Below, piece after piece: positions 31,253-61,648 of a stretch of 64,000 nucleotides of DNA (position 1 is the stretch's first letter; each line of letters begins with the position of its first letter). A program made the translations under genes and the position numbers. Under the pieces are notes generated by a model, which saw nothing but the letters and a program-made list of their open reading frames with translations, had not been told where the DNA came from and ran no database searches. Origin of the DNA: Rhizophagus irregularis (taxonomy: Eukaryota); contig NC_089434.1 of the NCBI RefSeq assembly GCF_026210795.1, positions 806,001-870,000 of the forward strand, read 5' to 3'.

Positions 31253-32031
31253 ATGCCCCAAATAACGAATCCCAAGAAATGGACTACGGATGAACTTCTT
31301 GGAATTCTCTCTTATATCGAAAGTCATCCATTTGATTCCTTGTCAGAGGCATGCAGAAAAGCAATAAAACATCAAAATATTGATAGAACTCATAAGAGCA
31401 CTTATTCAAAAATGACAAGATTAATTTACGCAATAAAGTTATGGTTGAATGATCATATACAAAATGGTGAAGCGATCATTTGGAAAGATGATAGAGTGTA
31501 TAAGCTATTGGAAAAAATTTGCGAGACACGGGAATCTAACAAAAATAATAAAAATCAAGAGCAAGAATTACAACGAGGTGATCAAATTGAAAGCACTATT
31601 GAAACTAATAGTGTGATCGATAAAAGCGAAGAGCAAGACCTCACAGATAATTTCAGTGATTCAACTATGGATGGAGATTATTATACTGATCATCTTGACT
31701 TATACAGGTAATTATCCATTTAACTTAAAATTTTGAGCCTATTAATAAAAACTACTATTTTAAATTTTTTTTTTTTAAAAAAAAAATATAATTTAGGAAA
31801 AATAAAGAACAATTTCCTTCTTTCCACCTTCCATTAAAGATCTTGAGTGATAGAATCTATGAAGCAGAAAAAGAAGCAAGAGAAGTTTATGAAACGACTA
31901 CTGCTGAAAACGAAGATATGAATTATCATCAAATTTGTCAAATAATCAAACAAATTCAAGAGTATCGAGATGAAGTGTGTGGTTTATTTGAGGAATTCGA
32001 AAAAAAGATCAACGAAATGAGATCATTATAA
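31253..32031 (+). CDS. Myb/SANT-like plus coiled-coil family, copy A (divergent, outside the main array)
   Basis: Exons 31253-31707 and 31797-32031 with a phase-2 intron. KKWTTDELLGILSYI..RTHKSTYSKM..IIWKD. Confidence 0.7.
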
Positions 32032-32282
32032 TTAAATGAATTCTTTTTGATAAAAAAATATTTTTTTTTTTTTAATAATTTGTTTTAAATTTTGCTATTT
32101 TTGTAAAAGGCATACTAAAATTTGAATTTATTCAGGTATTTGAATATAGCTTTAAACTTTAAAAGGAAAATATTACAAAGAGATATTATTTTACTTTTTT
32201 GTATTTTGCTTTCACAATTCCAATTTTTTTTTCCTTTGTTATATAACGTATGATCATGAAATAAATAGTCATTAACAAAGTA

Positions 32283-32458
32283 CCCTATGAAAAAAAATTT
32301 TGAAATACATTAAAAATTGCTATTTTAAAGTATTAATTTTTTACACAAAATGTAATGTATTAAATTACATCTAAAATTGCAATTTTAAGTATAATTTAAA
32401 AATTTTAAATATAATTTTAAAGTATGTGCATTTTAAGTATATTTTTTGTTTCATAGGG
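32283..32458. mobile_element. MITE with CCC...GGG ends flanked by TA
   Basis: TACCCTATGAAA at 32281 and TTTCATAGGGTA ending at 32460. Confidence 0.65.
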
Positions 32459-33593
32459 TACTGTACTATTTAATATCGTACCGCGGGTCATAGCACCTTT
32501 CAAATCCTTGTATCACCATGTCTATAGCCCGAATATTTTTTTATGGATAATATCTGGGTAAATTAAAATTCTTTAAATAATAAAATCAATAAAAAAAATG
32601 AAACTTTTGAGGATACTACGCATAAGGTGCTGTGGCCGTGGCCCACAATATACGGTGTTATGTTATTATTATTCATAGAAATTTTACGTCATTACGACAT
32701 TTAATATGTTGCCGATCCAATGTTACTTATTGTACCGTCAGAATCCAATTCTATTTTGCAATCCCGGTACTTTAATGATTAAAATTAACGAATCCGACGA
32801 CAATATTTTTAAGTTCAACAATCAATAACCATTTAATGTCCAATGAGTGTTGGTTTATATAATGATTTACAAGTTTTGGGGCGTAAAAAAATTTCATTGA
32901 TTTCGGATACAGAAATTCATATTGTATTATTCTCTATATACGCGTAAAAAAAATAAAGAAATACGAAAACAAATAATTTATAAATAATTATCCAAGTATG
33001 GTAAATTCTCATTATGTATGGTTACTAAATAATACATATCCGTACTTTTTTACTTATCATGTTTTAAGTATAAAAAAAAAATTTTAAAGAAAAAAGAATT
33101 GATCAAAATTGTCAAATAAAATAAAATAAAAAAAAAATGTAAGAAAGAAATGAAAATGGAAGGAATAAAAAATTTACTTAATAAAGAAGTTTTTAGCCAA
33201 AAAAAGAGTTAAAAATTAATAAATATCGAACGGACTTAATAAGGATCAATTAACCCTATTTAAATGTTTACCCGATTAAAACTAATCTTAATTGTTAATT
33301 GTCAATAATAATTCTTTTATTCGAAACAAAATATCCATAAAGAAAAGTCTTGGCATCTTGGCGTTTCTAGATTAAAAATATGTATCACAAATTTTTGATA
33401 AACATTTTGTTTGTCAGATTAGGAATTAGTGTCACAAAACGACTGATCAAATCATTCTTCGTACAAAGTTTTATGAGCGAAAAGTTTAAAAAATTTAAAT
33501 ATAAATAGAATTTCAATTCAATGACTTGTCGACTCTTCATTAATTTTTTTCATATAGGAAAAAAAATCAAATCGTCACTTTTCAACTGTTAAT

Positions 33594-34706
33594 ATGGCTC
33601 AATACTACAGAATACCATTGAAAAAAAATGAACCATCTTCCAAATATTCATGGGAAGAAAAATTAATAATTCACAAGAACATTGCAAGAAGCAAGTATGG
33701 TAGACTTGTTGAAAAAGAACCGTTAAAAGACGTAGCTACGGAACCAGTAACCGATTATGATAATGATATCGGATATTACGGTCCAGCAATTCTTGGTGGT
33801 CAAAAGTTTCAACTTCTTTTTGATACTGGTAGCGCAGACTTATGGGTCCCCAAAGTATCCTACAACAATGGAACAAAAACCAAACATAGCACATTTGATC
33901 CAGAAAAATCAGATACTTTTAAAACCGACAATAAATCATTTTCAATTACTTATGGTACAGGACATACTTCAGGTGTGGCTGCAACTGATACATTTGAATT
34001 TGCTGGTTTTTCCATCAAAGATCAAGCTTTCGGTCTCGCTGACACCGTTTCTGATGATTTTACGAACGCTCCATTTGACGGAATTCTTGGTATGGCTTTT
34101 GATCAGTTAAGCGAGCTACAAGCCCCAACCCCATTTCAAAATTTAATTAATAACCATAGTGTCTCATCATCTGTGTTTGGCTTCGTACTTGGCCGTGCAG
34201 AGGATGGCACTAACGGCAACAGTGAGCTTACAATTGGTGGAGTTGATCCAAAATTTTCAAATAACATTAAATATAACAAGGTTGTTAACAGACGAGGATT
34301 CTGGCAGATTGCTTTAGGTGGTGCGCAAGTAAACGATAAAACAGTAGATGTAAAAGGAGGTGAAGCTATTATTGACACTGGTACAACTCTTGTTATCATT
34401 CCTCCTGAGGATGCTGATGCTATTCATAATGCAATTCCCGGTGCGAAAAAACAAGGTCAAAATTACTTAATTCCAACCAATTCTAAAGCCGTAGTAGCTT
34501 TTACTTTTGGAGGAGTAACCTATAATATTAATCCTGCAGACATGACCGTTGATGATGTAGGAAATGGTCTAAGTGTTTCGGGCATCCAAGGCGAAAATAT
34601 GCCTGGTATGGAAAATACATGGTTGGTCGGTGATGTGTTCCTTAAGAACGTATTTAATGCTTATGATGTCAATAAATCGGCTGTGGGATTTGCTCCATTG
34701 GAATAG
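33594..34706 (+). CDS. Pepsin-family (A1, rhizopuspepsin-like) aspartic protease, intronless
   Basis: Catalytic FDTGSADLW and IIDTGTT, flap ITYGTG, DGILG, LVGDVFLK and VGFA. Propeptide RIPLKK. Confidence 0.96.
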   Translation: MAQYYRIPLKKNEPSSKYSWEEKLIIHKNIARSKYGRLVEKEPLKDVATEPVTDYDNDIGYYGPAILGGQKFQLLFDTGSADLWVPKVSYNNGTKTKHSTFDPEKSDTFKTDNKSFSITYGTGHTSGVAATDTFEFAGFSIKDQAFGLADTVSDDFTNAPFDGILGMAFDQLSELQAPTPFQNLINNHSVSSSVFGFVLGRAEDGTNGNSELTIGGVDPKFSNNIKYNKVVNRRGFWQIALGGAQVNDKTVDVKGGEAIIDTGTTLVIIPPEDADAIHNAIPGAKKQGQNYLIPTNSKAVVAFTFGGVTYNINPADMTVDDVGNGLSVSGIQGENMPGMENTWLVGDVFLKNVFNAYDVNKSAVGFAPLE

Positions 34707-36336: not shown

Positions 36337-36800
36337 ATACTCCAAAAGCAGCAAAATAACCAGTTACTCTCGCAGTACCGCTAAATTCGAAACATGATTC
36401 AAATTTTCCATCTTCTACACTATTATAATCATGGAGTATTGTGCTTACATTGTGTAGATTCGAGGTAGTTACAATTTCTTGATTATTCAAATATATAGCA
36501 AATTGGGCTACTTTGTATCAACATCATATGTTGTCACACCGACTGATATATCTATTGCTGCGAATGAAGAAGAACTTGAACAGGGAATTTTACTATTTTG
36601 ATTGTCCCATGTCATGTACGAGCTAGCACACTGTGCTTGTGTGTCATTCTCTGTTAGAAAATAATCAACACAAACTTCGCCGCCATTACATTTGTTATGG
36701 CCATAAATATTATCATGTCTCAACATCAAAGCGCGCTCACCCGGCAACTCAAGAAATGGCTAGAAGGGGTAAAAAGGGAGGAAAAATTAGTGACGTAATT
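36337..36800 (-). pseudogene. Frameshifted remnant of a small Cys-containing, probably secreted protein gene
   Basis: Hydrophobic leader fragment, CNGGEVCVDY..QAQCAS..PC, and downstream KFESCFEFSGTARVTGYFAAF in another frame, with stops between. Confidence 0.4.
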
Positions 36801-37656: not shown

Positions 37657-37890
37657 AATACTGTAAAAAAAAAAATATTATTAATTATTAAATAATATAT
37701 AATGGAAATATTTACAAATTAAAATTTAACCTAGCTTTGAGCAAAGTATGCTTACAAACACATTCTTAAAAATAGTTAAGCTAGTTTATTGTAAACTACT
37801 GGATTTGGAACTTAAGGGTATTACGTATCACGTGAGATTTTATATTTATCGACATGGCAAATTTATATAGCAATAGTAATGCAAATTTCT

Positions 37891-38614
37891 AAGGATTGGT
37901 GTCCCTAGTGTAATGGCCTAAGGCGTCTACACTCCCTATTGATCTGACCAATCAATAGGACGCAGGTTCAGATCATCCAGCCAACGATCCTTGCTATGAA
38001 TATTACTGCGTGCGCAGCCACCAATTGCGTTGAAGATCCCGTACCCTTAGGGGGAGCTGAAATGATGCCAACCGATGGTGAGGTGGTTGATGTGATCATT
38101 GGTAGACTGGTATGGCGAGTCCTAGGACTGGTCACTGACTCGACCGAACGTCTGGAGCTGGTAGGTGGCTACCACTCTGCACAAGCCTGTGAGTCTCATC
38201 TGAGCTGTAAATTCAGGATATTCGGATTGCCATAAGGTTCATATAGCTCTTGTTAAAACATCTTGGTACCCGAAAAAGGCCCTTAGGGGATATAATAGGT
38301 AGGGGCGGGACTACCAACCACTTAGTGGTCAACCAATTTGAAGAGCTGTGAATACTTTGCGGTCGACTCTAACCTGAGGTAGTGTAGACTGGGAGCATAG
38401 ACGACCAATGCATTACCCCCTTAGGGGAGGGTTAGAGGTGTAGATATAGAGTGGTCCCAACTATGTTGGGCCACCCTATATCTCTAGGACAGAATTCATC
38501 ACGCTTCAGGTGGCTTGACGTGTAGTGATAGAATTACATATAGACTCATTTTATGTTGTCCGCGTAATTGAATCTACCGTTTCGCTTTTCTGTTTTCTAA
38601 AAATAAAAAATAAA
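37891..38614 (+). mobile_element. GC-rich SINE-like retroposon with a tRNA-like head
   Basis: 19-bp TSD AATAGTAATGCAAATTTCT at 37872-37890 and 38615-38633. A-rich tail. A-box-like TAGTGTAATGG and B-box-like GGTTCAGATC. No convincing ORF. Confidence 0.75.
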
Positions 38615-38875: not shown

Positions 38876-39096
38876 TAAGGTTGCTTGCCGAAACCTTCTT
38901 AATAACTGCCGAAACCTATACGGAAAATGCCGAAACTATATTAAATCATATTAAAAATCCTGCCGAAACTTTGCCGAAATGCCGAAACCCCCATTTGCCG
39001 AAACTGCCGAAACCTGCCGAAACTATAGTAAACATATAGTAAAATCTTGCCGAAATTTATCGCAGGATTTTGGAGAGGTTTTGGCAAGCAACCTTA
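38876..39096. mobile_element. hAT MITE (TAAGGTTGCTTGCC family), copy 1
   Basis: TIR TAAGGTTGCTTGCC, 8-bp TSD GATGTAAA, internal GCCGAAA repeats. Confidence 0.9.
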
Positions 39097-39439
39097 GATG
39101 TAAACAAAAACAATTTGCCAAATGATATATATAAAAAATCACATGGTACGTAATACCCTTAAACTGAACTGCTTGAGCAAAATAACATCCATAGAATTGT
39201 GAAGCCGTGAGTGATAGCTTTCAGAATACCAAGGAAAATTTTGATCTGTATGTTAGTGCACATTGATGTCCACACGTTATCCTAGCCAGAAAAGCACATA
39301 ATGCAGAGAAAAAATTATTCTCATTTATATTACAAACGTTGTATAAAAAAGCTCAGCCGGTATTGAAGGTCATTAACAGACAGGCTTATAATGTCTCTGC
39401 TTATCATAATGAATAACCAGATTTTTTTCTCAACTTAAT

Positions 39440-40972: not shown

Positions 40973-40997
40973 ATTTTAAGTCCCCAAGACTTCCAGC

Positions 40998-42626: not shown

Positions 42627-42848
42627 TAAGGTTGCTTGCCAAAACCTCTCCAAAATCCTGCAATAAATTTCGGCAAGATTTTACTATATGTTTACTATAG
42701 TTTCGGCAGGATTTTGGCAGTTTCGGCAAATGGGGGTTTCAGCATTTCGGCAAAGTTTCGGCAGGATTTTTAATATGATTTAATATAGTTTCAGCATTTT
42801 CCGTATAGGTTTTGGCAGTTATTAAGAAGGTTTCGGCAAGCAACTTTA
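42627..42848. mobile_element. hAT MITE (TAAGGTTGCTTGCC family), copy 2, inverted relative to 38876-39096
   Basis: Near-identical reverse complement of copy 1. TSD AATCCGTC/AACCCGTC. Confidence 0.9.
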
Positions 42849-43883: not shown

Positions 43884-45642
43884 AATACAACTATTATTCT
43901 GATATAGTTATATAGTTTGATAAGTATATAGTTTGATAAGTTTAAAGTACTTACAATCATTGACTCTGAATAGTAAAACATAGCTATTATTCTGATATAG
44001 TTATATAGTTTGATAAATATATAGTTTATTTAATAAGTATTAACAGTAAAACAAAGTATTTGTAATTTAACATATATACCCTGCCTTCGTACTTTTTTTT
44101 TCAAATTTTTTCATTCTTCATAAGAAAATTATGGATAGTCAATATAAAAGATATTTCAAAAAGAAATCCAAATATTGGTCTCTAACTGATTTTGACTCCT
44201 AGGTCTTAAATAATATAGAACACTGTCAGAAAAGTCTAATGTATCAGGTGTTTTATAAATATCTTAATAAGGTTTTACAAGATCAAACATCCTCAAAGTG
44301 AAAGTTAAAAGTAACTTATTTCAGAGGAGGAATCATGTATCTTTTCCAATTAAACTTACATTTGGCAGGAAATCACATCTTGGACTGGCTTATCCTGAAT
44401 GAAGGAATTTTTTCCTGGCCATTGCAACTTGCTTTGGATGAAGAAGGTTTCTTCTGGTCATGTCTTTAATTTTCTGACTTATCCTAGGTGAAGGAAGTAT
44501 TCTCCTGGCTGTTACTGACTTGCCCTGGATGAAGAAGTTTTTTTCCATGGATTTCTGGCCAGGCACTTACTGCTTTTATTACTTACTAATTACTATTTAT
44601 GTTACTCATATTTCTTTTTCCTAATTTTTAGGATGATCTGAAAGAAGCTAATAATTTGTGGAGAACGCCCGATGTGTTAAGGCAACTTAGTATATGCAAA
44701 AATAATAGTAATATTAAAGAAGAAGAGCAAGCTTTGGTCTCAAAATGTGAAAACTTGAATTGAGGGAATGAAAAGCCAAAGTTCGCTCTTTAGAACTTCA
44801 AAACATACAATTGGAAAATAAGCTCCAAGAACAATTGGAATGAAATCTCATGCTTTTTTTTCTATAATCTGACATAGCACAATTAAATATTTTTATAATT
44901 TTATATTTTTAAACTTGCTAAAAAAAACAAACTATTATTTGTACTTAGATGCAATTTTTTAAGATCAAATAATAGTCTTTAGCTAATCTATAATCAGTAA
45001 AAGATTAATGATCAAAAAAAATCTTGGGATTGAGATGTTGTTATAAAAAAATCATATATTTTTTTTTCAATTTAGGTAGAGGGCTAGAGGCTGCTTATCA
45101 TTTAGGCCGCTCCAAGCCAATTCTTTGTTTAACATAACATAGGGATCCCAATCTGGGAGGGGACAAAAAATATTACATAAAATACAATACATGGCCAGAA
45201 TTACCATTAATTTTAGCCAAAATTTTGACCAAAAGAGTGAGCAAAAATTTTGGATGATAATTCCGGCCAAGTTGTCTAATTCCGGCCTAAATTACATGTA
45301 TTTTTTTTTACATAAAAAATCCAAAAACGGGGGGTGGTTATGTCAACCCTATAAAAAATTTTTATCCGAATATTTCCATTATTTCTCCGTGTCTTCCGTA
45401 AAAATTCCGTGAAAATGATACATTCACGGATATCCGTGTTAGCGAGATGAAAATTTCCATGATTTAAGGCTATAAATTCCATGAAAATGATACATTCACG
45501 GAAAAAACATGGAAAGATAAAACACGGATCAGATTTTTTTACAGGGCAAACGAAAAATGGATTAGATTTCTTTTATTTAGTTATCTTTATTATATAGTAG
45601 AGGGACGATTTAAACTATTAGAATAATATTTTATATTACAAC

Positions 45643-47197
45643 ATGGCTTCAACAAGTGGTTTACAAAGAAAAAACGCTGGAGCTTTTAATTCATCACACG
45701 AAAATAATATACCAACAACACCAGATTGAAGTTATTCAGAGAGTGGTGTTAGGATTGCAGTTGATCCTAATGACATACTTGATGATGAAGATAAAAAACA
45801 ACCTATTTTAACACTTATGGAAGAAGTTCTCTTGCTAGGTTTAAAAGATAAACAGGTAAAATATTATTATTTCATTTATAATTTTTTTATTCGGTATTTT
45901 TTTTTCTTTCTCCCGACAATAAAAAAAAATGTGAAATTTTAATTCATAATTTGGATAATCTATCGTCGTTGAATAGTAATTATTAATTAGGTGAATAATT
46001 ATTTATCGAAAGAAGGATTAATTATCAACTGACATGGAGAATAGTAGCAGTTTGTTCTTTTAGTTTTTTTAAAATTTTTTTTTAAAAGATCGTTACATTT
46101 TAAAGACAATTTATTAAATATATGGGACGATTTATCATATTATCATTCATTTATTTAACAAAAGACGAATTTTGTAGAATCGGTATGATCGGTATAATTA
46201 ATAAAAAAAATGACAATTTTTTGAGGGAGAGGAAGGGAAGAAAGAATACGATTAGAAATTAGGGATTCGATTATAATTTTTTATTTATATCTTTACAAAT
46301 TATTTTTTTATGTAATATTTCTCTTTTCTATATAAATAATAATCTTGATCAGGGTTACCTCTCATTCTGGAATGACAATATTTTTTATACTTTAAGAGGG
46401 TGTATTCTTATGGAACTTGCGCTTCGTGGTCGAATAGCCATGACTAAAGATTCAAATCGTCGAAAATGTCCACTTTCAGATAGGATCATAGAGGTCCTTG
46501 AGGATAAGTTGACAGGAGAAGTATTATTAGATGAAGCATTAAAATTGATGAAAAATAGTGAACCTATGAGCGTTGGAAATTGGATTGATCTAATGAGTGG
46601 TGAGTTTGAATGTATACCAAAAAAAAGGAGAAATGATTTTTAAGAGAGGAATTATTTATTATTTGTTATTTGTTGAGAATTTAAAAATTTTTTTTCATTT
46701 AAATCCTTTTATTTAATTATTATTATTATTATTTTTCCTATCAATTATTATTTTAGTAGGAGAAACTTGGAATGTAATGAAGATTGGATATCAATTAAAA
46801 CAAGTACGGGAATGTTTAGCAAAAGGATTAGTAGATAAAGGGATTTTAAGAACCGAAAAAAGAAACTTTTTACTTTTTGATATGGCAACTCATCCTGTTA
46901 GTGATTCTTCGACAAAGGAAGAAATTGTTAATAGAGCTATTCACCTTTTGGTAGTTTACGTACTATATCAATGGTATGTGTTGCTTACGCCGCTAATGTA
47001 TTAGAAAATGCTTATTGCAGTTAAATCATGAATTAAGAGAAAAAGCATATACAAAAGTTGATGAATTATTAAGTGAATATTCTACTCATCCTTTTTCTAA
47101 AAAAGTTAAAGCTGATATTCCTGAAGGAAAAGAATTACAGGTTGAAGTAGTGTTCACCGTTTTAAATGTTTTTACAAAGATGGATAGTATTTTGTAG
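45643..47197 (+). pseudogene. VPS74: Golgi phosphoprotein 3 / Vps74 pseudogene (introns retained)
   Basis: [81 protein letters not shown]. In-frame TGA at 45727 and deletion/frameshifts at ~46950-47020. Confidence 0.9.
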
Positions 47198-48669
47198 AAA
47201 AAATGTATCATTAATTTATTTTATTATTATTTGGAAAGGAATAAGGTAAAATTTGTTTTGTAAAAAAAAAAAATCCTCACAAGAGTGCGTAATTCTTTTT
47301 GTTTGTTAAATCATTTTAATTATCATTATTTTCTTTATACGTTGGTTAAATTAGTTTAATTTTCTTTTCTTTTTTTTTATTAAAGAAAAAAAAATTTCTT
47401 AGGGTAGATGTAAAAAATTATGTTCACAATCTTAATATAGAAATTACAATATCATTAAAAAAAAGGGAATAATTTTAATAATTTGTGTTACAAATAGTTT
47501 ACAACTTCTTTAATTGCATCGTAACACTTTGTCATATCCGGAACATAAATATGATCTTATTTGGAACGTATCCCTTAGTAATAATTCTGACTATCGATAA
47601 AGGAATAGAGTGAACTTTCTAAGTATTTTCTTGGGAAGGTTCCTACTGTTTCACTTAATAATTAGCCTGAGCATTTGTATTTTTTTTCTTTAAACAATCT
47701 CGTAAGGCAGTTTAATTCTTTAAACAAAAAAAAAATTCACCCAAAACTCACCATCAATTTGTCTAACAGTATACTTAGTTTTTTTTAAGTCATCTTTTGA
47801 GTGGAAGTGGAAATTTTACAGAAATAATATAGAAAATAACTTTTTTCTGTAAATTTTTTCATCTTCATTCAATAGCTGTTTTTGAGATTAAAAAGAGGAA
47901 ACTCACAGCAAAAGAAAAGAGGCACCAAAAATTATACCTTCAATTCGCTATTATAACACCAAACCAACGAACCGGATACTGGTAATATGGTAGGATTTAT
48001 TGCTAACAGTGTAGCCACGCATCCAGGCGATGATGGCAAATTTTCTATCGTAAGATTCACCGCACTGAAGGATGGGAACTATGTCCTAGACGCGACATTT
48101 ACACATAACAGTTAGTTATTGTGCCTAAAAAAAAAGAGAAAGAAAAGGATGGTTAAAAAAAAGGAAATAAATCAACAACAAAAGAACACCTGAAACTCAC
48201 CTTCATACAACTGTATAAGAAAGATAAAGATTAAAAAAAAAAAGAAATCACGAGTGAAAAAGTAACTCACCAAAATCTACCGTCATTTAGGGGTGCAGAC
48301 ATTTGTTAGTGACGTACCGCCATATTGCGTTGCGTCGTTTGACGACGGCTTGACGTATCAAAATATAAATATTTTTAAAATAAATTCCATTTTCCTTTAT
48401 TGCGCTTACTACTCTTTTAATTAACAGTATATTTTTCTCCTTTGGCTGATCTATTTAAAACATTATTAACTAAATTATATCCATATTATTATCATTTGTT
48501 TCAATGAGTAAGACATTTCTGCTTTCTTATCGTTATGAAAACATACAAGCACATGTGTACAAAGCCTATAATTATAAGTATTTCATGTCAAAAGTTTGGA
48601 GTCTAAGGTACTTCAAATCAAGAGTTTAGTCAAAAGCTTATGTCAAGCCTAAGGTTAAAAGTAAAAAAG

Positions 48670-50029: not shown

Positions 50030-50773
50030 ATGCCTCGAGCTGATAAATCAATCTTTTGGCCATCTTCGGAACTAATTAAAGTACTTGAGTTTATTAATGA
50101 TAATTTTGATGAGTATTGTAAAAATCGTCGAAAAATTTGTAATGAGGCCGTAAAAGCTACAAACATTTGTCGAAATGGAAAATCGGTTTATAATAAACTT
50201 TTTAATTTAATTAGAAATATGATGATTTCTGAATTTAAAAGTAGTGAGCCAACTAGCAGATCCATCAAAGAGAATAAGGAAATTCGTAGATTAGTATCAG
50301 AACTTTATAATAAAACTAACGCTAAAGAAAAAAATAAAAAAGAAAATCAAAAAATAACAGAAGATCGTAAGAGTGATGATACTAAGATGAATTTAGAGTA
50401 TGTTGACTTTAAATTATTGATTTTTTTTTCATAAAACAAAAAAAGCTATTACTAATATAATATTTACATTTTTTTTGTCTTTAATTTTAGCGATGATAAA
50501 GTAACAATCGGAGCGTTTACTGGTCAAATGGATATGTTCTTTTCGATTGAGAATGTTAATGAATTTTGTGAAGAAAAAATACAAAATGTTAACCATTATG
50601 CGACAATATCGAAAGAGATAGTTGAATCTGGCCTTGAAATTAAACTCGAGGAAATTCTTCAACTTCTGTCTGAATGTGAAAAAACGATGAAGGATCGAGA
50701 TAGTAAGGTTAATAAATTACTTGAAGATTTAGAAAGTGTTGGGATGGACTGGGACCCTGATAATACACCATAA
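50030..50773 (+). CDS. Myb/SANT-like plus coiled-coil family, copy B
   Basis: Exons 50030-50397 and 50491-50773 (phase 2). FWPSSELIKVLEFI..RNGKSVYNKL; exon 2 FSIENVNEFCEEKIQ. Confidence 0.8.
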
Positions 50774-52002
50774 ATTTAACAAAATAAGTTTATAGTATGT
50801 CTCTAATCGATGATTGAATTAAAATTACGTTTAAATTAATAATTAATTAAAAAATTTCCAAGTTAGACTATTTGAACAACGTAAAATAAAGATTTCATTC
50901 TTTACCATCTCTAATTTACGTTGTAGCAAATATCATATGTAAAAGTTTGCGTTTTTAGACGCCAATAATAAAGTGAAGGTATTAACCCATGCAATTCATC
51001 AATCTACGTCACCTCAATTTTCTTTTTTTTCCTACCCTTGTTTTTTCCTTTTTTGATATATAACTTTTTTTGGTCATTCTTTTCTGTAATACGATAATTA
51101 TTTTACTGTAAAAGATGTTAAGGGTTTCTGTTTTACGCAAAAGTTATCTATTTATAACAGGTTTTTTAATGTAAGATGAATGTATTTGTTTAATAATGCG
51201 AGGAGAGAAAGATTTTTTAATTGTGAGATTATTTAAAAAATACGTCAAAAAAAAAATATATATTTATTTTAGTTGCATACTTGCATTCAAAGATGCATGA
51301 AAATCGATTCTTGGCTCCGAACCGATATTATTAATCACCGATTCGATCCTGTACCACTCAACCGAAAACCTTTTCTAATACAATGAAAAATTTCATTCGC
51401 GTGGTACCTTGATCACGTGTAATCATCACGTCCATCTTTTTAAAAATAAAAAAATAAATTAATAAAACTATTAAAGCTCCGGATCTGTTTCAACAAGTAG
51501 TGTCACAAGACTACGTGATTTAACCAATTCTTTTTTAATTATGGCTAGCAACAGCCCGTTGCTTCGCACCAGGATCAATATACTTAGCATGAATAAAAAT
51601 ATTAAATTTATCATTAATTTTAGTGATAAAATTATGACACATCAATAAAAAATGCAAACATTGATGATATGAACCTTAATCATTTCAGCGAAACGAAAAA
51701 TGATCGGCGATCAAATTATTTTGCCGTAATTTTGACGGGGACATGCTAACGTTACACATTTATTCGGGGTATCCAAATTCTTTAAATCCATAAAGTTCTT
51801 ATAAGGCGCAGCAATTGCAGCAATCACACGTAAACTATTCCACTTTCTGAATTTGATTCCTTCCTGTTTAATAATTTTGTAATGTAATAAAATAAATAGT
51901 CGTCCCATTTCATTTTTTTTCATTTTTTTTTAATTTTTTTTTTTAACAAAAGAAGAGAGAAAAAAGAAAAATTATATAATCGGATATTTTTGAAAAAGAT
52001 AA

Positions 52003-52678
52003 ATGCCACCAACAAAAAGGACAAGGGAGATATCTCAAGAATCATATGTGAAGTCCATAGGGCTTATCAGAGTCTTTATGTTTCTTAATAATAACATTAA
52101 TATGTGGAATGAAAATAATTATAATGCATGTGATGAAGCAAAAAAGCGTGCCGATGTTACTTGGGATGCTAAAATAACTTATAATATAGTTAAAACTTGT
52201 ATTGAAGCTATGAATGAATATAATGAAACAGGTAATAAGCCAAACACTTGCGACAGTATTATCTGGGATAATAAAAGACTTAATAGTTTGATAAGAGTGT
52301 TTTGTAATAAAATTGTGAAAGAAGAAAAACAAGGAACTATGAAAGATCGTAAGAATGACGGGGGTATTGAAAATATTTTAAGGTATGATGACTTTAAGTA
52401 TTATTGTTTTTTTTTAAAAAAAAATATTATTAGATAACTGATAAATATTTTTTTTTCCATTCGCTAGTCGACCCTTTTCGATTGCGGAGGCTAAGAATCT
52501 TTACAACGAAAAAATTAAAAATGTCAACTTTTATGCAGATAAAGGTAAAGAAATGATTGAAAATGGTCGTAAAAAACAAGTCGACGATATTACTAAAATT
52601 TGGTCCACACTTACAAAAACGTTTGAGGACGAATATAATAAGATTAATAAAATATTTGAAGAATTGAAAAAACTTTAA
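52003..52678 (+). CDS. Myb/SANT-like plus coiled-coil family, copy C
   Basis: Exons 52003-52382 and 52468-52678 (phase 2), open through to TAA. Confidence 0.8.
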
Positions 52679-52930
52679 TAATCGGCTGGAAGCTACATTA
52701 TAGTTTTGTAAACTTTTAAAAGCATAATGTCTTGAAATTTTATTATCAAAATTAAGTTTGTGATGTTATCTAAAATAGTTTAAATCTTAGACCTGACATT
52801 TAAAGTGTAGTTTAATGGGGAGGGAGCGTTGAGGCACCATTAAGTGCATGATGCAAGGGAATAAAAATTCAACGAACATTTTCAATAATTAGAGTTTTAA
52901 CGATATCTTTATTTTACGTTATATGTAATA

Positions 52931-53016
52931 ATTATTTCACGGAAACTGTGGATATCATTGATTTTCACGGCGCAGCCGTGAAATCATGATATTTCACAAT
53001 GACTTTGTGAAATAAT
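52931..53016. repeat. Foldback palindrome centred on CACGGC-GCA-GCCGTG
   Basis: ATTATTTCAC..GATTTTCACGGC pairs with GCCGTGAAATC..GTGAAATAAT. Confidence 0.75.
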
Positions 53017-54064
53017 TAATTTTTTTTAATAGCTTTTATGTATGACAACCAAAGGTATTAAGCTAGGAAACAGAAATACACCGTCGTACACTTTAATATA
53101 ACGTATGAGTCATCAATTGTATCAAAACATTAGACGATAAATAAACATATATAACTCCATTTGATTTTGTTGCACCAACCGCATTTCTCTGAAATTTAAA
53201 ATTTTTACATAAGCATACAGACTGGATAATTTTCGATCACGTGCTCGATGTATCTTTTTCAAACATGACGTAACTTAAAAGCTGTTTTGACACAATTATT
53301 TATTAATATTTATACGCATAATTAGACGAAATTAACAAGTTATAATATACATTTATCGCTGTTTTTATATTGGGGTGACCAAATTACCGGACAAGGGACG
53401 ATTACAAGACAAAATTTGACGAATGTTCGAATACCTATTCAAAAATTAATAGGGCAATATTAAATAATAAATAAATAATCCTGAATACTTTGTCGATCAT
53501 CACTTTTTCTTTTTTGCTTAATTGGGGATGATTAATTTCTTTTTTTATTATTTATTTTTAGTAAGCGCCATAAGGAGTTACATAATTTAACCAAAATTCT
53601 TTTTAATTAAAAGTCCCCCTTATAAAAACGAAATGAGTTAAATTTGTTTAATATTTGTGCTCATGTGTAATAAAATATCTAAAAAAGCACCATATTGTTT
53701 AATTTTTATTTTTTTGTAATAAGACATAAATTGTATAAAATGGTGCTTTTTTGGACGTCTTTTATACATGAACACAAATTTAACACATTTCATTTTATAG
53801 GGCCCTTTTAATGATTTAAAAGTTTTAATGTCATTTATAAGGCGCAAATAAATGCAGAAATCACGACGCTTTGCATTTCCTAAGGCGTAAACTTAAAAGC
53901 TTTTCCATTTTTGAACTTGATTGCTTCCTGATTTATAACTTGTAACACAAGTGGTCAGAGCATACAATTAAATAAATAGTATAGAAAAATTCAATCTCAC
54001 ATTTTTTAACAGGAAAAAAAAAATTGATTATTTATACTTTTTATCTATATTTTTGAAAAATTAA

Positions 54065-54466
54065 ATGCTACCAATAAGAAATTCAAGTGAAATGTCTCAA
54101 GAAGGTCATGGAAGTGACGGTGACGTTGAAATGGGTTTAAAGTATGTTGATATTAAATCATATTCTTTTTTTTAAAAAAAATAAATGAGTTAAAATAAAA
54201 GATTTAATTTTAGCACTGATCAAGTAACAACTGAAGTATTCACTGGTCGAACAGACAAGACATATTCAATTGAGGAGATTAATAAAATTTGCAACGAAAA
54301 AGCTCAAGAAGCCAAAACTGCTGCGGAAAAGACGATAGAAATGATTGAAGCAGATCGTAAAAAGAAATTAGAAAAAATTAGTCAACTTCGGACCGAACTT
54401 ACTAATACAATTAATGATGCAAATATCAAGATTAATAAAATATACGAAGATTTGAAAAAAATTTAG
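54065..54466 (+). CDS. Family copy D: 109-aa short form lacking the Myb-like domain
   Basis: Exons 54065-54141 (77 nt) and 54214-54466. MLPIRNSSEMSQEGHGSDGDVEMGLN-TDQVTTEVFTGRTDKTYSIEEINKICNEK...LKKI*. Absent from the ORF track. Confidence 0.8.
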
Positions 54467-55009
54467 CGATTGTCAGGAATTTATATTATTATTTTATAGA
54501 CTGAAAGCATAATATTTTGAAATTTATTTTAGTTCATATAGATTTATTTGAGTTAGTAATTAAGTTTAAATAAAAATTAATTTAAATTCTTTATTTCTTT
54601 TCTTTTAATCTCTAAAGTTTAGACCTTTAATAAAATGAAGTTTTTATTTTATGCTGTAATTAAGTGGGAAAAAATTCTTAACCTATTTAATATCTATGAG
54701 CTGGTTCTTTTTCCGTGATTTGCACTATCTCTTTTTATTTAAGATCAACCAAAACTGTGATTCCAATTTTGACAATTTAGTAATAGCCATCTTACCTCAT
54801 CTTGCATCTAAATTTTGATTGGTTCCAAATTCAAAAGTAATCGGTAAATTAAAATTCCTTTATTTCTATTTATTTATTTATTCCACCTCCCATTTCTGAC
54901 AAAAGAAAAAAAGAAAATTTTTTTTTTGAAGTCAGTTACTTTTATTTCTTCCACCTCCCATTTCTAACAAAAAGAAAAAGAAAAAATTTTTTTTTTTTAC
55001 TTCACATTA

Positions 55010-55345
55010 CAGTCGCCACTGGATATAACGAACCTGGATATACCGAAAACTCGTTTTATCGAACCAAATAGTGCGGAACCGATTTTCTTATAATTAATTA
55101 CACTGGATATAACAAAATTATATAGTAAAATGCTACGTGTTTATTGATCAAATGTATTGATACCGAATGATCACGTGAATTAAATTGGTATAGGATAATC
55201 ATTTACGCGGATAATCTTTGAACACAATATAATATGACGTGCAAAACTTTAAATAATTTTTTAATCATGTGACTTGATTTTATTGGTAGAATCTATATAC
55301 CGAACTATAGATTAAAGTATTATATAACGAATTCACCCTATACCG
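55010..55345. mobile_element. Tc1/pogo-like MITE fragment replacing the 5' part of copy E
   Basis: TA-CAGTCG start and repeated GGATATA(A/C)CGAA motifs. Right TIR not found. Confidence 0.45.
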
Positions 55346-55862
55346 GAGAAAATGAAGAAATCTATGAATTGGTAAAACGAATTTAAAAGACTGAAAGAAG
55401 ATAATCAAGAAATTGCAAGAGGCTATAAGAGCAACGGTCACATTGAAAAAATTTTGAGGTATGGTGAATTTAAGTATTGTTTTTTTTTTAACAACGAAAA
55501 TACTATGAGATTTATAATTATTAATTTATATATTTATTTTTTTTTCTTTCAAATTAGTTCTGATCAAATAGGCCCTGCTGACCTGCTCAATCGAGTAGAT
55601 TTTTAATCTTTGTGATAAAAAAATTCAAAAAATTGACAATTCGGCGACAGAATTGATAGAGAAGGTTAAAACTGATTATAAAGAACGAATCAATCAAATT
55701 ACTCAATATCACTCTGAACTTATAAAAAATATTAATGAAACCAGTAAACAGATTAATGAAACTAATAAGATGTGTGAAGAGTTCAGAAAATTTAATTATC
55801 TGTTAGAAACTACCATATATTATCATTTTAAAAGCCGAAGCGTGGTATCTTTCATTATTTAA
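55345..55862 (+). pseudogene. Family copy E, 5'-truncated pseudogene closest to copy G
   Basis: ENEEIYELVKRI*..NQEIARGYKSNGH. Intron nearly identical to that of copy G. Exon 2 has an indel. Confidence 0.75.
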
Positions 55863-56544
55863 TCTATTAAAGTTTAGACCTTTAAAAAGATTCTTTATTT
55901 TAAAATTACGACTGTCATCCAACATAAACGGCCCTTAATTTAGACGAATTTAATATGCTATTCGGCATTATATCGGGCCGATATGTGTTCAAAATCCTAA
56001 ATTATTGGAGCATATACGTAACTACACTTCCATTCTGAATTTCTGATCACATGCATGCAAAGTCTGTCAACTGAGTCACGTGAATTTGCAAAAATAGGAA
56101 ATATTCTTATCGAACATTTAATTCTGGCTGGAGTACAGTTGACCAAAAGTAATTTAGTCAGCTATTTGAGAAATTTCGACAATGGTTAGAATTTTGGATT
56201 TTGGTAACTATATAGTCGCTCTGGATACTGAAAAATTCGTTCATTGATAACGTTACAGATTTGATGATCACTCATTTCACTCAATGAATAAAAGTGCCAT
56301 AAAATGCTCATTTTATATTATAGGGCGCTACGATTGCAGCATATTGCATGTTAGGCGTAAACCTAAATTTTTCCGGTTTTTGAACTTGATTTCTTCCTGT
56401 TTTATAACTTTCATTTATTTCGTAACACAAAGTTATCGAATAAATAGAATTGAAAATCCATTTTACATTTTTAACAAAGAAAAAAAATCGATAATTTTAT
56501 ATACATATATTTATATATATACATACTTTTATATTCGAAAATAA

Positions 56545-56953
56545 ATGCCACCAATAAGTAAGATGTCTCAAGATTCTGCAAGAGGTCGTAGGAATGACGG
56601 TGACGTTGAAATGAATTTAAAGTATTACGATTTAAATCCTTTTTATTTTTTAAAAATGCGTTATTAAAAAAAATTTACAAATTGTTTTTTTTCATTTTAG
56701 CACTGATCAAATAACAACTGAAATACTCACCGGTCGAACAGGAATACTCTGTTCAATTGAGGAAATTGATAATCTTTGTAACGAAAAAGTTCAAAAAGTT
56801 AAACTTATTGCGGATAAATCGATAGAAGCGATTGAAGCTGGTCGTAAAAAACAAACCGATCAAATTTCTCACCTTCGGGCCGAACTAATAAATACGATTA
56901 TAGAAGCAAAAAATAAGATTAATAAAATATGTGAAGAGTTGAAAAAATATTAG
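56545..56953 (+). CDS. Family copy F: 109-aa short form lacking the Myb-like domain
   Basis: Exons 56545-56621 (77 nt) and 56701-56953. MPPISKMSQDSARGRRNDGDVEMNLN-TDQITTEILTGRTGILCSIEEIDNLCNEK...LKKY*. Absent from the ORF track. Confidence 0.8.
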
Positions 56954-57537
56954 TGATTGACCGAGAAACTTATATTATTTTTATAGACCAAAGAAGAATA
57001 AATGTATTATTAGTTTATATAATTTTAACAAAATGAGTGTGTGTATTTATTAAATAAAAATTAAATTCTTCATCCTTTCAAGCCTTTATTTTATGTTTTA
57101 TAAAATTTTATAATCGAAAGTCGTAATTGTACATCGTGACAAATAATGTGATATCCAATTTAAAGTGGGTTAAAACCGGTAAAAAGACAATCATTAAATT
57201 CTGAGTTGATTGTTTTCTATCATACCCATACTTCTATACTTTAAGAAATATACTATCCTTTTTTATTTAAGTTCGTATCATAAGGCGGAGTTTGCAGCCA
57301 ACTTTCGTATAATCACTCAATGAATTAATCATGACACAACATATTTTTCTTGCATTTGATTGATTCCAAATTTAAAGATGTCGATCAGATAAATAGTATT
57401 GAAAACTCCTTAAATTCCTTTCACTTGACAAAAAAGAAAGAAAAAAAAAGTTTAAAATCGATTAATTTTATTCTTCACGATATTTTTAACAAAAAAAAAA
57501 AAAAAAAAATTTCTTAATTTTTTTTTTGAAAAAAAAA

Positions 57538-58252
57538 ATGCTATCATTAATAAATAATATGAATAAGACACCACAAGAAATACGTTGGAAACCCAAAGAT
57601 CTCGCTCGCATCTTATATTACATTAATGATCATTTTGATGAATGGTATAATGATAATTATAACTTTTGTGTCAAAGCAAAAGAAAATACCGGCGTTATTT
57701 GGGACGCTAGATCAATTTATAATATGGTTCATACCCTGTTTAAGGTCACAGAAGATTATCTTAAGGTAGGTACTAAGTCAACAACATGCACCATTATCTG
57801 GGAAAATAGAGAAATCTACGATTTGATGAAACAAATTTACATGAGGACTAATAAAAGAATGAAAGAAAGCAATCAAAGAGTTACAAGAGGCCATAAGAAC
57901 GACGGTCACATTTTAAAGTATGGTGAATTTGTGTATTGTTTCTTTTTAAACAACGAAAATACTATGAGATTTATAATTATTAATTTATATATATATATAT
58001 ATTTTTTTCTTTCAATTTAGTTCTGACCAAATTACAATTGAAGCACTAATGGACAGGCCCTGTTTGATCGAGGAGATTTTTCATCTTTGTGATGAAAAAA
58101 TTCAAAAAGTTGTCAATTCGGCGGCAAAATCGATAGAAAATGCTGAAGCTGAATATAATGAACGAATCAATCAAATTACTCGATATCGGTCTGAACTTAT
58201 AAAAAGGATTAGTGAAACTAATAAGATGTGTGAAGAGTTCAGAAAGTTTTAG
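57538..58252 (+). CDS. Myb/SANT-like plus coiled-coil family, copy G
   Basis: Exons 57538-57917 and 58021-58252 (phase 2). RWKPKDLARILYYI..WDARSIYNMV..IIWEN. Confidence 0.8.
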
Positions 58253-59389
58253 TGTTCTTATATTATAGGCTGAAGCATAGTGTCTTTGAAATTTTAATTT
58301 TCATAATGGATTAGTCCATACAAATTTAACAAAATAAGTTTGGTGTTCCTATAGATATTTCACAAATTTATTTAATTAAAAATTAACTTAAAATTCTTCG
58401 TTCTTTTAATCTTTAAAATTTAGACTTTAATAAAAATATTCTTTTTTTTTTTGTGTTGTAAAAAATGTTTTTTTAACCATGACGCATCGATATAAATCAC
58501 GTGATATTAGCATAATTTGGCCAAAATTTAAACTTTGGCCTAGATTATTTCGAGTTATTTGTATTAAATCGGACCGATAGGTTTTAAATCGGTGGCGTAA
58601 ATTATATAAAATCTTCAATAATTTATATTAACTAGGGAACGGTAACCGTTGGGGAATAACGAAATTATTAACCTTAATTAAACTTAATTAAACACGGGTA
58701 ATTCGAATAAAAAGAATATATATCAAAAAAAAAAATAAAGGATGTTAAACAAAATTATATTATATTACATTTATTTTCGTTACAGTTTGTTTATTTTTCG
58801 AATAAATAGAAAATTGAATATAGTTTTCTGATTATGATTATTAAAAATAAACGGTATATCATAATCATCAAATAAACAATTTTTGTTGTGTAACCGAAAG
58901 AACCAATACGAATGGATGGCCATCGACTCACATTGAGCACGGGACATTCGTGAAACCGACACGAATAGTATATAGTCGAAAATGTACTGTATTTTCAAAT
59001 ATATTATTCATATGGCAGAAATTATTGCCTAACCTGATGGAGTATCTGATAGGCATACCAATGTTACAGCATAACTGATAAGGGTTCATTTTCTAATTCT
59101 TTATTTCCTTTCTTAGTAAAAGAGGAGAAAAAAAATACTTTATATTCCGAGGTGCCAAAATTCAGCCGAATTTCGCACACACCATATCATCAAATGATCT
59201 GCGTAACAGTATTACAAATATCACAGATTTAATGCACACAAAGATGAGACGCCCTGCCCAATAACTATATAATATTTCTTATATTAAAATTTATGATATA
59301 TTATTCTAAAAATTATATATTATTTATTTCTTTATTATCTTTATATTCATTTTTAAATAATCTAGATTTTATGAGTTTTTTTTTTTGAG

Positions 59390-59535
59390 AAAGATAGATT
59401 TTGTAATACATAAAACGATTTACAGCGTATCTTGTGTTACGAAAACTAAGACAAAATTATTTAGACGAAAGATCGAATTTGTAATACATAAACGATTTAC
59501 AATGTGTCTTGTGTTACGGAAAACTAAGACAAAAC
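59390..59535. repeat. Tandem duplication of ~75 bp
   Basis: GAAAGAT..TTTGTAATACATAAA.CGATTTACA..TCTTGTGTTACG.AAAACTAAGACAAAA occurs twice. Confidence 0.8.
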
Positions 59536-60437
59536 TCCGATTCCCTTTCCACGCGTACTTCCCTTTTTTATATACTATTTCTTTGATTCGTATAAGTTAT
59601 CCTTGGTATAAATTATATTGCACTGTATATACTATACAAAATTTAAGTATAACTTACACCCCGGAATATATAAGATATATGCCGATTTCTGTGTTACGCA
59701 GATCAGCTTCGAATAAATGTATAGCAAAAATTCGGCATAAAGCTGACATAATCAAAATGATCGGGCTATTAAATTAACAAAGATATCACGAATTTAAGTT
59801 TTGTGTAACATCATGAAATCTAAAAATTTCCACATTATTAGTAATGCCGCATTAGATGGCATTTAGTATAACTTACACTTTATATAACTTTACACTTTGT
59901 TATACGCATAGAAAAATTAGTATATATAGTATATATAGGCGCGCTGGACGAAGCAGCTAATATCAAAGAGACAGCAATATTGATTTTATCTGTGTATTAC
60001 ATTTATGACTATTTCTATTTGTACACAAGTGTGCGAAACACGGATCACGTGTTTATCATACTCGGTGATCTGCATAAAAGATTTCCTTTTGGGGAAATTT
60101 GTGCAACGAATTTTCAAGTAAAATTGCCTTTTTTGGTTGTGTAACGTTGCCAGATTTCCAAATATGGAAATTCAGTAAATTTTGGCTGGAATTATAAAAT
60201 TTGGCCGAAATTATTGGGCGTGGCATATAATATGTGATAAATAAGGTTTTTCTTACTGAAGAAATTCAAGCCCCTAGAATAAATAGTAAAAATGGAAACT
60301 AAAGGGTGTGACACTGTGACATGGGTGACAAATTAAAGTCACGTGATAAGTATTTCGCACACTAGGTCACTAGTGTATTTTAAGAAATTTTCTACATTTA
60401 TCTGTTATTATTATATATTTCTTATAAACTTTTTTAT

Positions 60438-60602
60438 TAACTCGGAAATGGAAACCGCTGTAAGTCCGGAGCGAAAAAAAAATGAGATTTGCGATTTCAT
60501 TGGATGACGTCACGTGAGGGACAGAAGAGAAACTCACGTGATCTATAATTTTTCATAATGCGTAGACATATATATAGTCCTTCGCTTCGCTCCGGACAAT
60601 AA
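60438..60602 (-). mobile_element. Second HINE/DINE-like element
   Basis: Minus-strand 5' TTATTGTCCGGAGCGAAGCGAAGGAC hairpin, subterminal IR GTCCGGAGCG at 60464, 3' hairpin CGGAAATGGAAACCG. Confidence 0.6.
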
Positions 60603-60928
60603 ACGAAAATCTACACTCTATTCGATAAATTATACTGTTGCTATCACGTGACACCACGCAAACACCACTTGTTTACTGTCTCAAATGATCGCCCAATAAT
60701 TTAGAAAACCATACATTCCAATTTTAACAATTTAGTGGCACCTACATCGCATGTTACATTTTTTAACTATTCTAAATTCCGTAAGGTGGCGAACCACACA
60801 AATTAGATAAATATCCCTACTTTAGATCTTTTTTTTTTTGACAAGAAAACATTTTTTTTACCCACCTAAAATAATATATTTTTTAATCATACTGTATATA
60901 TCAATTTTTCAAATAAATAAAAAAAAAG

Positions 60929-61648
60929 ATGCCTCAAGCTGACAGAATAAAACGCTGGGAAACATCAGAACTAATTAAAATTCTTACATTTCTCAATAAA
61001 AACTTTAACTTATGGTATAAAAACCACCAAGATGCATGTGTGGAGGCCGTAAAAGCCGTTAATATTAACCGAGATGGAAAATCAGTCTATAATAAAGTTC
61101 ATTCTATGATCAAAGCTATGGAGCATTTTCTAAGAACTCGTAGAAAACCAAAGACTTGCTACATTATTCGAGAAAACAGAACTATTCGTGGGTTGGTAAA
61201 AGAAATTTGTTACAAAACTAGAGAAAGAAATGGAAGAGAAAATCAAGATCGTAATAATGACGGTGACATTGAAATGGCTACAAAGTATGATGAATTTTCT
61301 TTCAGTTTTTAAGATAATATTAATTATTAAGCATTAACAACATTATCATTTTATTATTTTACTTATTTTTTTTTCATTTTTAGTAATAATCAACCAACGA
61401 TAACTAGGACATCCCAAAATCGAATTAACGTTCCTCGGATGCCTTTTTCGATTGAGACAATTGACGAGATTTACAACGAACAAATTAAAAGAATTGATCG
61501 TTCGGCGGTAATATCCAAAAACTTGATCGAAGTTAGAAATAGAGAAGTCCGTGATTTATACGAACAAATCTCCAAACGTCGAACAGAACTCATCGAATTA
61601 ATTGAGGAAGCCAATAATAAATTACAAATGTTGAGAGTACTTAGATAA
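60929..61648 (+). CDS. Myb/SANT-like plus coiled-coil family, copy H
   Basis: Exons 60929-61284 and 61384-61648 (phase 2). RWETSELIKILTFL..RDGKSVYNKVHSM; exon 2 PFSIETIDEIYNEQIK. Confidence 0.82.

What the first reader, a model, noticed from the sequence alone, without database searches (positions are those of the whole stretch)
31253..61648. Uncharacterised eight-member Myb/SANT-like plus coiled-coil gene family, seven copies in tandem
Seen: copies A (31253), B, C, D, E, F, G and H (50030-61648) are all on the + strand. They share one phase-2 intron after a (R)..DG..E(M)-like motif and a helical heptad-rich exon 2 (FSIEEI..L.NEK). Long copies have W...EL..IL.(F/Y)I ... A ... R..KS.YNK, matching Myb/SANT/trihelix spacing. 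The proteins are highly diverged yet mostly open, implying an old array under selection. Inference: a lineage-specific family of dimerising DNA/chromatin-binding regulators, possibly domesticated from the PIF/Harbinger Myb protein.
Basis: partly seen in the sequence, partly recalled or inferred. Interest (0 to 1): 0.75.

Follow-up and report, generated by a model that had tools for sequence, protein, structure and literature searches.

The report
Sap1-like Myb gene array, mycorrhizal fungus
A root-symbiotic fungus carries an old row of unnamed, mostly transcribed genes whose predicted shape most resembles the fission-yeast DNA-binding protein Sap1; they likely work as paired DNA-binding regulators, and two short copies that lack the predicted DNA-binding part could act as built-in brakes.

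Summary
The family is real. There are eight + strand copies: five long (A, B, C, G, H), two short ones lacking the N-terminal domain (D, F) and one broken (E). All seven open copies have one phase-2 GT-AG intron; RNA reads show the junctions of B, C, D, F and H, G is the most deeply covered, and A is nearly silent. Two AlphaFold models give a Myb-type helix-turn-helix plus an extension helix, a disordered linker and one long C-terminal helix. The best solved match for both is the S. pombe Sap1 DNA-binding domain (Z 9.5-9.8, TM about 0.6, 14-17% identity), a protein with the same domain order. No Pfam family is reached. All 33 species-labelled relatives (of 102) are Glomeromycotina; the genes also cluster in R. 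clarus and G. cerebriforme, and short copies occur in two other species. C and G replace conserved recognition-helix residues. Likely role: dimeric DNA or chromatin regulators, with D and F as possible dominant-negative partners. DNA binding and dimerisation are untested, and descent from Sap1 or Harbinger is unproven. A spliced antisense RNA overlaps F.

The parts
31253..32031 (+). Gene A, 229 aa; exons 31253-31707 and 31797-32031; most divergent copy, R48 and K56 intact
   Evidence: Identical to P0011; orthologues in R. clarus, G. cerebriforme and F. geosporum form a 100* clade; depth 0-2 and no junction row in 4 runs
50030..50773 (+). Gene B, 216 aa; exons 50030-50397 and 50491-50773; R48 and K56 intact
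   Evidence: Model; junction in 30, 8 and 0 reads of X21, X22, X24 and in an X2 contig
52003..52678 (+). Gene C, 196 aa; exons 52003-52382 and 52468-52678; W at position 48, I at 56
   Evidence: Identical to P0009; junction in 4, 7 and 0 reads and an X2 contig; residues
54065..54466 (+). Gene D, 109 aa; exons 54065-54141 and 54214-54466; linker plus long helix only, no Myb-type domain
   Evidence: Junction in 31, 28 and 29 reads; 87% to R. diaphanus P0087 and 69% to R. clarus P0080, both also short
55010..55347 (.). Sequence standing where the 5' part of E should be; begins TA|CAGT like a Tc1/pogo-type terminal repeat (motif recalled, not tested)
   Evidence: No similarity to the E-like proteins; RNA reads with fixed differences at 55030-55075 point to other copies elsewhere
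55348..55796 (+). Pseudogene E: end of exon 1 (to 55458), intron 55459-55557, frameshifted exon 2
   Evidence: 75% DNA identity to G; gaps against G; P0036 has a whole exon 1 and is 86% identical over the remnant
56545..56953 (+). Gene F, 109 aa; exons 56545-56621 and 56701-56953; no Myb-type domain
   Evidence: Junction in 54, 38 and 27 reads and an X2 contig; 63% to R. clarus P0080
56639..56872 (-). Two introns (56639-56730 and 56774-56872) of a spliced antisense transcript over F, with a 43-nt exon between them
   Evidence: CT..AC joints in 18/29/91 and 2/2/65 reads of X21/X22/X24; GTGAG...AG on the minus strand; longest ATG frame 41 codons in the stretch tested
57538..58252 (+). Gene G, 203 aa (second ATG at 57559); exons 57538-57917 and 58021-58252; W at 48, M at 56
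   Evidence: 97% to P0006 with the same junction; deepest RNA cover, and an X2 contig piece starts at 58021, but the junction row was not among the 15 shown of 66; N-domain model pLDDT 90
60929..61648 (+). Gene H, 206 aa; exons 60929-61284 and 61384-61648; R48 and K56 intact, N-domain charge +13
   Evidence: Junction in 16, 12 and 0 reads and an X2 contig; 76% to R. clarus, 53% to G. cerebriforme; model of its 98%-identical variant P0003

Best explanation
This is an old, mostly transcribed tandem gene family of arbuscular mycorrhizal fungi whose long members are predicted to carry a Sap1-like Myb domain and a long helix, likely pair through that helix and likely bind DNA as regulators, while the short copies D and F would act as brakes by pairing with them. 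Shown: gene structures, splicing, conservation, clustering in related species, and absence of the domain in D and F. Predicted: the four-helix Myb-plus-extension fold, the disordered linker and the 64-residue helix. Inferred by analogy with Sap1: helix 3 (residues 50-70 in H) enters the major groove, the C-terminal helix forms a coiled-coil dimer, and binding needs two domains, so a partner with none (D, F) or with an altered recognition helix (C, G: R48W and loss of K56) would weaken or redirect binding by A-, B- and H-type proteins.
For: Two template-free models of 36%-identical paralogues give the same helices 12-24, 33-44, 50-70 and 84-107/109 (pLDDT 82 and 90). Sap1 DBD is first in all four fold comparisons: Foldseek prob 0.90-0.99 with the next unrelated chain at 0.30 or less; VIA Z 9.5 and 9.8, rmsd 3.8, 95 residues aligned. 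16 of the first 20 rows among 48,161 chains are Myb, SANT or homeodomain DNA-binding domains by title. Sap1 is a Myb HTH plus extension helix plus coiled coil, and its binding depends on the coiled coil (PMC6053445). Polar residues at the start of helix 3 are among the best conserved: R48 51/58, S52 47/58, Y54 51/58, K56 51/58. Language-model neighbours are Myb/SANT-like (0.86-0.88). D and F are spliced in 3 of 3 raw-read runs, have short relatives in two other species, and both frames stay open in only 96 of 20,000 neutral simulations at 23% divergence.
Against: No Foldseek E-value is below 0.04, and the VIA output warns that Z under about 13 for helical bundles may be only a common arrangement. 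No Pfam cut-off is reached; Myb-type families appear only weakly (PF04504 2/58, PF13837 2/58, PF00249 E 0.038). Atlas scores are under 0.9, leads only. The N-terminal 105 residues of A, C and G are barely basic (+2, +3, +1). G, the most expressed copy, lacks R48 and K56. dN/dS between paralogues is 0.33-0.77 for N-domain exons (8 of 10 pairs computable) and 0.28-1.60 for exon 2, with 4 of 21 pairs at 1.0 or more. The a/d hydrophobic pattern is modest in B, C, D and F (10-11 of 19-21). A is nearly silent. No clear nuclear localisation signal was established.
Confidence: 0.6

Rival explanations
1. True distant relatives of S. pombe Sap1 that, like it, mark replication barriers, open chromatin or retrotransposon target sites rather than regulate single genes.
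For: Sap1 is the top fold match for both models over about 95 residues, including the extension helix, and has the same domain order (PMC6053445).
Against: 14-17% identity; family profiles do not retrieve Sap1 from PDB sequences at E<=10; NgTRF1 has the same four helices (Z 7.7-8.1), so the fold is not unique to Sap1; here a linker of about 30 disordered residues precedes the long helix; Sap1 is essential, whereas this family turns over and has silent or broken copies.
Confidence: 0.15
2. The founder was the Myb-like gene of a PIF/Harbinger transposon, domesticated and then duplicated in tandem (an origin, compatible with the best explanation).
For: Atlas neighbours carry PF13837, PF12776 and PF10545, some in Mucoromycota; PIF/Harbinger is ubiquitous in fungi (PMC5751038, passages); such Myb-like proteins diverge fast (PMC9392472, passages).
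Against: The profile search of 1.84 billion representatives gave 82 hits, all bearing this family's motifs, and none of the 24 with a species label is named as a transposon protein; no DDE transposase among the window ORFs scanned; no gene-flanking inverted repeats among the 25 longest of 201 pairs.
Confidence: 0.25
3. The domain binds proteins or histones, SANT-style, not DNA; the family would be chromatin-complex or signalling adaptors.
For: CHD1 SANT-SLIDE is third in the wide search (Z 6.8); low positive charge in A, C and G; the module is fused behind kinase-Sel1 proteins in two species.
Against: Conserved R, S, Y and K at the start of helix 3; H and B domains are basic (+13, +9); the top two matches bind DNA.
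Confidence: 0.2
4. D and F are decaying fragments with no regulatory role.
For: dN/dS D-F is 0.68 in exon 2 and above 1 over the 25 codons of exon 1; antisense junction reads outnumber sense ones over F in run X24; neighbour E did decay.
Against: Open frames at about 21-24% divergence; spliced in 3 of 3 raw-read runs; short relatives in R. clarus and R. diaphanus.
Confidence: 0.15

Closest known systems
Schizosaccharomyces pombe Sap1 (PDB 6EXT, 5JDK, 5B7J)
   Same: Four-helix Myb HTH plus extension helix, followed by a long helix or coiled coil (PMC6053445)
   Different: 14-17% identity and no sequence-profile match; a disordered linker; a multi-copy array with short and altered members instead of one essential gene
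Plant telomere-binding NgTRF1 (Myb plus Myb-extension; 2CKX, 2QHB)
   Same: Same four-helix arrangement, Z 7.7-8.1
   Different: 6% identity; the domain there is C-terminal (residues 574-660) in a much larger protein
Trihelix GT-1, Zeste/MADF, GeBP and MSANTD-type Myb/SANT-like proteins
   Same: HTH core (GT-1 Z 5.6-5.8, Zeste 5.3); atlas neighbours; weak PF04504 and PF13837 scores
   Different: No Pfam cut-off reached; the third conserved tryptophan (recalled Myb feature) is V or I here
microProteins such as LITTLE ZIPPER (PMC4807768, passages)
   Same: D and F are under 140 aa, keep only the predicted pairing helix and are related to longer proteins
   Different: Dominant-negative action untested; they sit in the same array as their presumed targets

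Membership tests
Myb/SANT-type HTH superfamily | Three-helix helix-turn-helix core | tested here: met
   Predicted in two models; fold neighbours are mostly Myb, SANT or homeodomain
Myb/SANT-type HTH superfamily | Three regularly spaced tryptophans (recalled feature of classical Myb) | tested here: not met
   W10 50/58 and W29 45/58, but position 57 is V 34, I 18, M 4, L 2
Pfam Myb-type families (PF00249, PF13837, PF12776, PF10545, PF04504) | Score at the curated cut-off | tested here: not met
   Best 17.3 bits against 29.5 (PF04504) and 14.6 against 24.4 (PF00249); 58 members scanned, 25 of 108 weak families shown
Myb/SANT-type HTH superfamily | DNA binding through helix 3 | not testable with these tools
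   Only conservation of R48, S52, Y54 and K56
Sap1 | Myb HTH plus fourth extension helix | tested here: met
   Z 9.5-9.8, 95 residues, model 7-107 on Sap1 29-133
Sap1 | C-terminal coiled coil that dimerises | tested here: inconclusive
   One 64-residue helix at pLDDT above 90; hydrophobic a/d 14 of 19 in H; pairing itself was not modelled
Sap1 | Detectable sequence similarity to Sap1 | tested here: not met
   Profiles A3 and A5 list no Sap1 chain at E<=10; 14-17% identity in structural alignments
Sap1 | Replication-fork barrier or transposon targeting activity | not testable with these tools
   Needs experiment
Harbinger-derived Myb-like genes (MSANTD, NAIF1) | Similarity at E<1e-5 to a Harbinger Myb-like protein (as used in PMC9392472) | tested here: inconclusive
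   None recognised among 82 hits, but that library is unnamed and no transposon library was on hand
Harbinger-derived Myb-like genes (MSANTD, NAIF1) | Fixed position across species, no longer mobile | tested here: met
   Clustered accessions in R. clarus and G. cerebriforme; A and H clades follow the species order
Active PIF/Harbinger element | Linked DDE transposase and terminal inverted repeats | tested here: not met
   No DDE family in the ORFs scanned; no gene-flanking arms among the 25 pairs shown
microProtein (D, F) | Under 140 aa and related to larger proteins | tested here: met
   109 aa; exon 2 is 31-53% identical to those of B, C, G and H
microProtein (D, F) | Single protein-interaction domain | tested here: inconclusive
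   Only the helix exon is kept, but no Pfam domain reaches cut-off
microProtein (D, F) | Dominant-negative action | not testable with these tools
   Needs experiment

The most novel reading that the evidence does not exclude
Mycorrhizal fungi hold an expanded branch of the Sap1 lineage, organised as a self-regulating array: A-, B- and H-type binders, C- and G-type partners with a rewritten recognition helix, D- and F-type domain-less inhibitors and an antisense RNA, all mixing through one coiled coil, with one copy wired to a kinase-Sel1 sensor. It would control chromatin, replication pausing or transposon targeting in a transposon-rich genome.
Probability: 0.15. Interest if true: 0.8.

Novelty: new variant of a known kind. 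Interest (0 to 1): 0.52.

Why it matters
These fungi cannot easily be mutated and many of their genes have no name, so a hidden family of candidate regulators that Pfam misses is a concrete handle. The array offers a natural test set: intact, altered and domain-less copies side by side, expressed differently between libraries (B, C and H junctions absent from run X24 while D and F persist). If the Sap1 link holds, a protein I recall as confined to fission yeasts would gain relatives, and its roles in fork pausing and transposon targeting could be tested in a symbiont. If not, it remains an unannotated lineage-specific Myb-type family with candidate fungal microProteins.

Tried and rejected
No whole genome was held, so the family could not be counted genome-wide and synteny rests on accession order and contig lengths. 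The complex prediction for the G and F helices was not available: no verdict on pairing. The wide VIA search was run only on the G domain model; the full-length model got Foldseek and the second look. Pfam scans gave scattered weak coiled-coil and helical hits (ARM_FBXO47, CILP, KH_PARP14_8, best E 8e-5, all under cut-off), rejected as inconsistent between members. PDB sequence searches gave only generic coiled coils. The metagenome scan gave 1 relative among 235 candidate stretches (L001); it has the intron at H's position but a frameshift in exon 1, so it was not used for dN/dS. NG86 with Jukes-Cantor is unreliable at this AT content and divergence; 2 of 10 N-domain pairs were saturated. The E/G exon-1 and intron rows used a wrong boundary and are not cited. 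The run search listed no indexed holder on record as RNA; raw-read runs were laid instead. Those libraries look unstranded, so strand comes from splice sites only. Contig run X10 laid 1 record on the A region and tells nothing. Both trees are quick trees with many open forks. The scan's earlier notes held nothing. Paper searches found no description of the family: six locus tags, 0 papers; Sap1 with Rhizophagus, 3 papers, unrelated by title and abstract start; nothing specific in the listings. Supplements were not searched, and expression tables there may list these genes.
Full report
Observation. The window is AT-rich eukaryotic DNA. Two of its proteins are identical to database records labelled Rhizophagus irregularis (P0011 = A, P0009 = C). 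Enumerating splice sites gave seven open two-exon models, each with one phase-2 GT-AG intron: A 229 aa, B 216, C 196, D 109, F 109, G 203 and H 206. E keeps only the end of exon 1 and a frameshifted exon 2. A six-frame profile search finds these loci and no other at E<0.1. B-H span 11.6 kb; A lies 18 kb upstream, beyond an aspartic protease and a GPP34 gene.

Expression. In two poly(A) runs and one run labelled RT-PCR (X21, X22, X24; a quarter to a third of each read), junction reads were B 30/8/0, C 4/7/0, D 31/28/29, F 54/38/27 and H 16/12/0. G had the greatest depth (about 80-97 in X21 and X22, 250-340 in X24, against under 0.5 at 59.5-60.3 kb). Its junction row was not among the 15 shown of 66, but an X2 contig piece starts exactly at its acceptor. 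A had depth 0-2 and no junction in X21, X23 and X24, while the protease next door reached 55-200 in X21 and X23. Two minus-strand introns over F show a spliced antisense RNA whose junction reads outnumber the sense ones in X24; it has no ATG frame over 41 codons in the stretch tested. Conditions and strains of these runs are unknown to me.

Range and age. Searches returned 102 distinct proteins, including 82 clusters at 50% identity. 33 of the 102 carry a species label, and all 33 are Glomeromycotina: R. irregularis, R. clarus, R. diaphanus, Glomus cerebriforme, Funneliformis geosporum and Acaulospora morrowiae. Seven R. clarus records share a 1,086,036-bp contig length, six with accessions between GES79983 and GES80004. 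G. cerebriforme members are RIA81382-81390 and RIA89518-89528. In the tree of 45 rows, the A clade runs Funneliformis, Glomus, R. clarus, R. irregularis (100*), and H groups with R. clarus (99*) and then Glomus (94). The array therefore predates the Rhizophagus-Glomus split. Short, domain-less genes are also predicted in R. diaphanus (87% to D) and R. clarus (69% to D); a second R. clarus model joins the short gene to an E/G-like neighbour, the same order as D-E here. Selection is real but loose: dN/dS 0.33-0.77 for N-domain pairs and 0.28-1.60 for exon 2, yet D and F both stay open in only 38-322 of 20,000 neutral simulations at 18-28% divergence.

Structure. No member reaches a Pfam cut-off. 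AlphaFold2 on P0003 (98% identical to H, 23-row alignment) gives helices 12-24, 26-31, 33-44, 50-70, 78-82 and 84-107, disorder at 107-135 and one helix 142-205. The G domain (58 rows) gives the same helices at pLDDT 90, pTM 0.79. Foldseek ranks the four Sap1 DNA-binding-domain entries first for both models (TM 0.58-0.63 for the G domain, E 0.04-0.5). VIA gives Sap1 Z 9.5 and 9.8, NgTRF1 8.1 and 7.7, then CHD1, RAD, TRF1 and GT-1. The tool warns that Z under 13 can be generic for helical bundles. The match stands 2 above the next row, which the Sap1 paper itself names as Sap1's closest fold, and covers the whole domain. I therefore take the Myb-type assignment as well supported and the special tie to Sap1 as a lead. 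PMC6053445 (parts 1-3 of 5 read: abstract to methods) describes Sap1 as a Myb HTH (helix 3 recognising), an extension helix and a coiled coil needed for binding.

Mechanism. The best-conserved polar residues sit at the start of helix 3 (R48, S52, Y54, K56), the register of the recalled Myb motif R-x7-K/R-W. All 7 of 58 domains with W at 48 fall on one side of a branch (support 86, not starred), and 6 of these 7 also lack K56. This group holds C and G, and D and F join them in the full-length tree (89), so one contiguous block, C-G, has altered or lost the presumed DNA-contact surface while keeping the long helix. The simplest working model is a set of coiled-coil dimers in which A, B and H types bind DNA and the C-G block modulates or quenches them. 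D and F meet the size and relatedness criteria of microProteins (PMC4807768, passages). Pairing and binding are inferred, not shown.

Origin. Harbinger domestication is possible: atlas neighbours are Myb/SANT-like clusters at 0.86-0.88 and such elements are widespread in fungi (PMC5751038, passages). No sequence link, transposase or flanking repeat was found, so the criterion used in PMC9392472 (passages) is unmet so far. Descent from Sap1 also lacks sequence support.

A side finding: the whole module ends predicted kinase-Sel1-MACPF-like proteins in R. clarus and R. irregularis that are 59% identical. These are gene models and could join neighbouring genes.

Novelty and verdict. My paper searches found no description (listings only, no supplements); one search returned none and served to find the papers cited. 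This is an undescribed variant of a known kind: a Myb-plus-extension, coiled-coil family confined, as far as labels show, to Glomeromycotina, with built-in truncated members. Interest 0.52.

Noticed in passing
window 2897-10614, minus strand: Apparently intact LINE-like retrotransposon: RRM and zinc-knuckle ORF (8426-9889) and a 1,792-codon endonuclease, reverse transcriptase, RNase H frame.
   Followed up: partly
window 14270-18779, plus strand: Helitron Rep-helicase split over three frames (Helitron_like_N and PIF1 hits).
   Followed up: partly
window 25279-26795, 28486-28842 (minus), 33594-34703, about 45640-47200: Neighbours: tyrosine-kinase-like kinase, GPR1/FUN34 transporter exon, aspartic protease (strongly expressed in X21 and X23, almost absent in X24) and a GPP34 gene.
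   Followed up: partly
window 56639-56872, minus strand: Spliced antisense transcript over gene F with a 43-nt middle exon; its ends are not mapped.
   Followed up: partly
P0067, P0048, P0103, P0074 (not in the window): The full module stands at the C-terminus of kinase-Sel1-MACPF-like gene models in R. clarus and R. irregularis.
   Followed up: partly
window 38880-39100 and 42630-42790: Two copies, in opposite orientation, of a GCCGAAA-rich element; similar short repeats fill 39-45 kb.
   Followed up: no
window 37890-38520: GC-rich island (about 45-50%) in a 25-30% GC window, with a 95-codon frame; possibly a mobile-element fragment.
   Followed up: no
P0011 against P0023 and P0024: A-type proteins labelled R. 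irregularis differ by 15-23%, far more than G or H variants (2-3%): either a second A paralogue or unusually divergent alleles.
   Followed up: no
L001 1372-2095: H-like gene in a soil-type metagenome contig with the same intron position and a frameshift in exon 1.
   Followed up: partly
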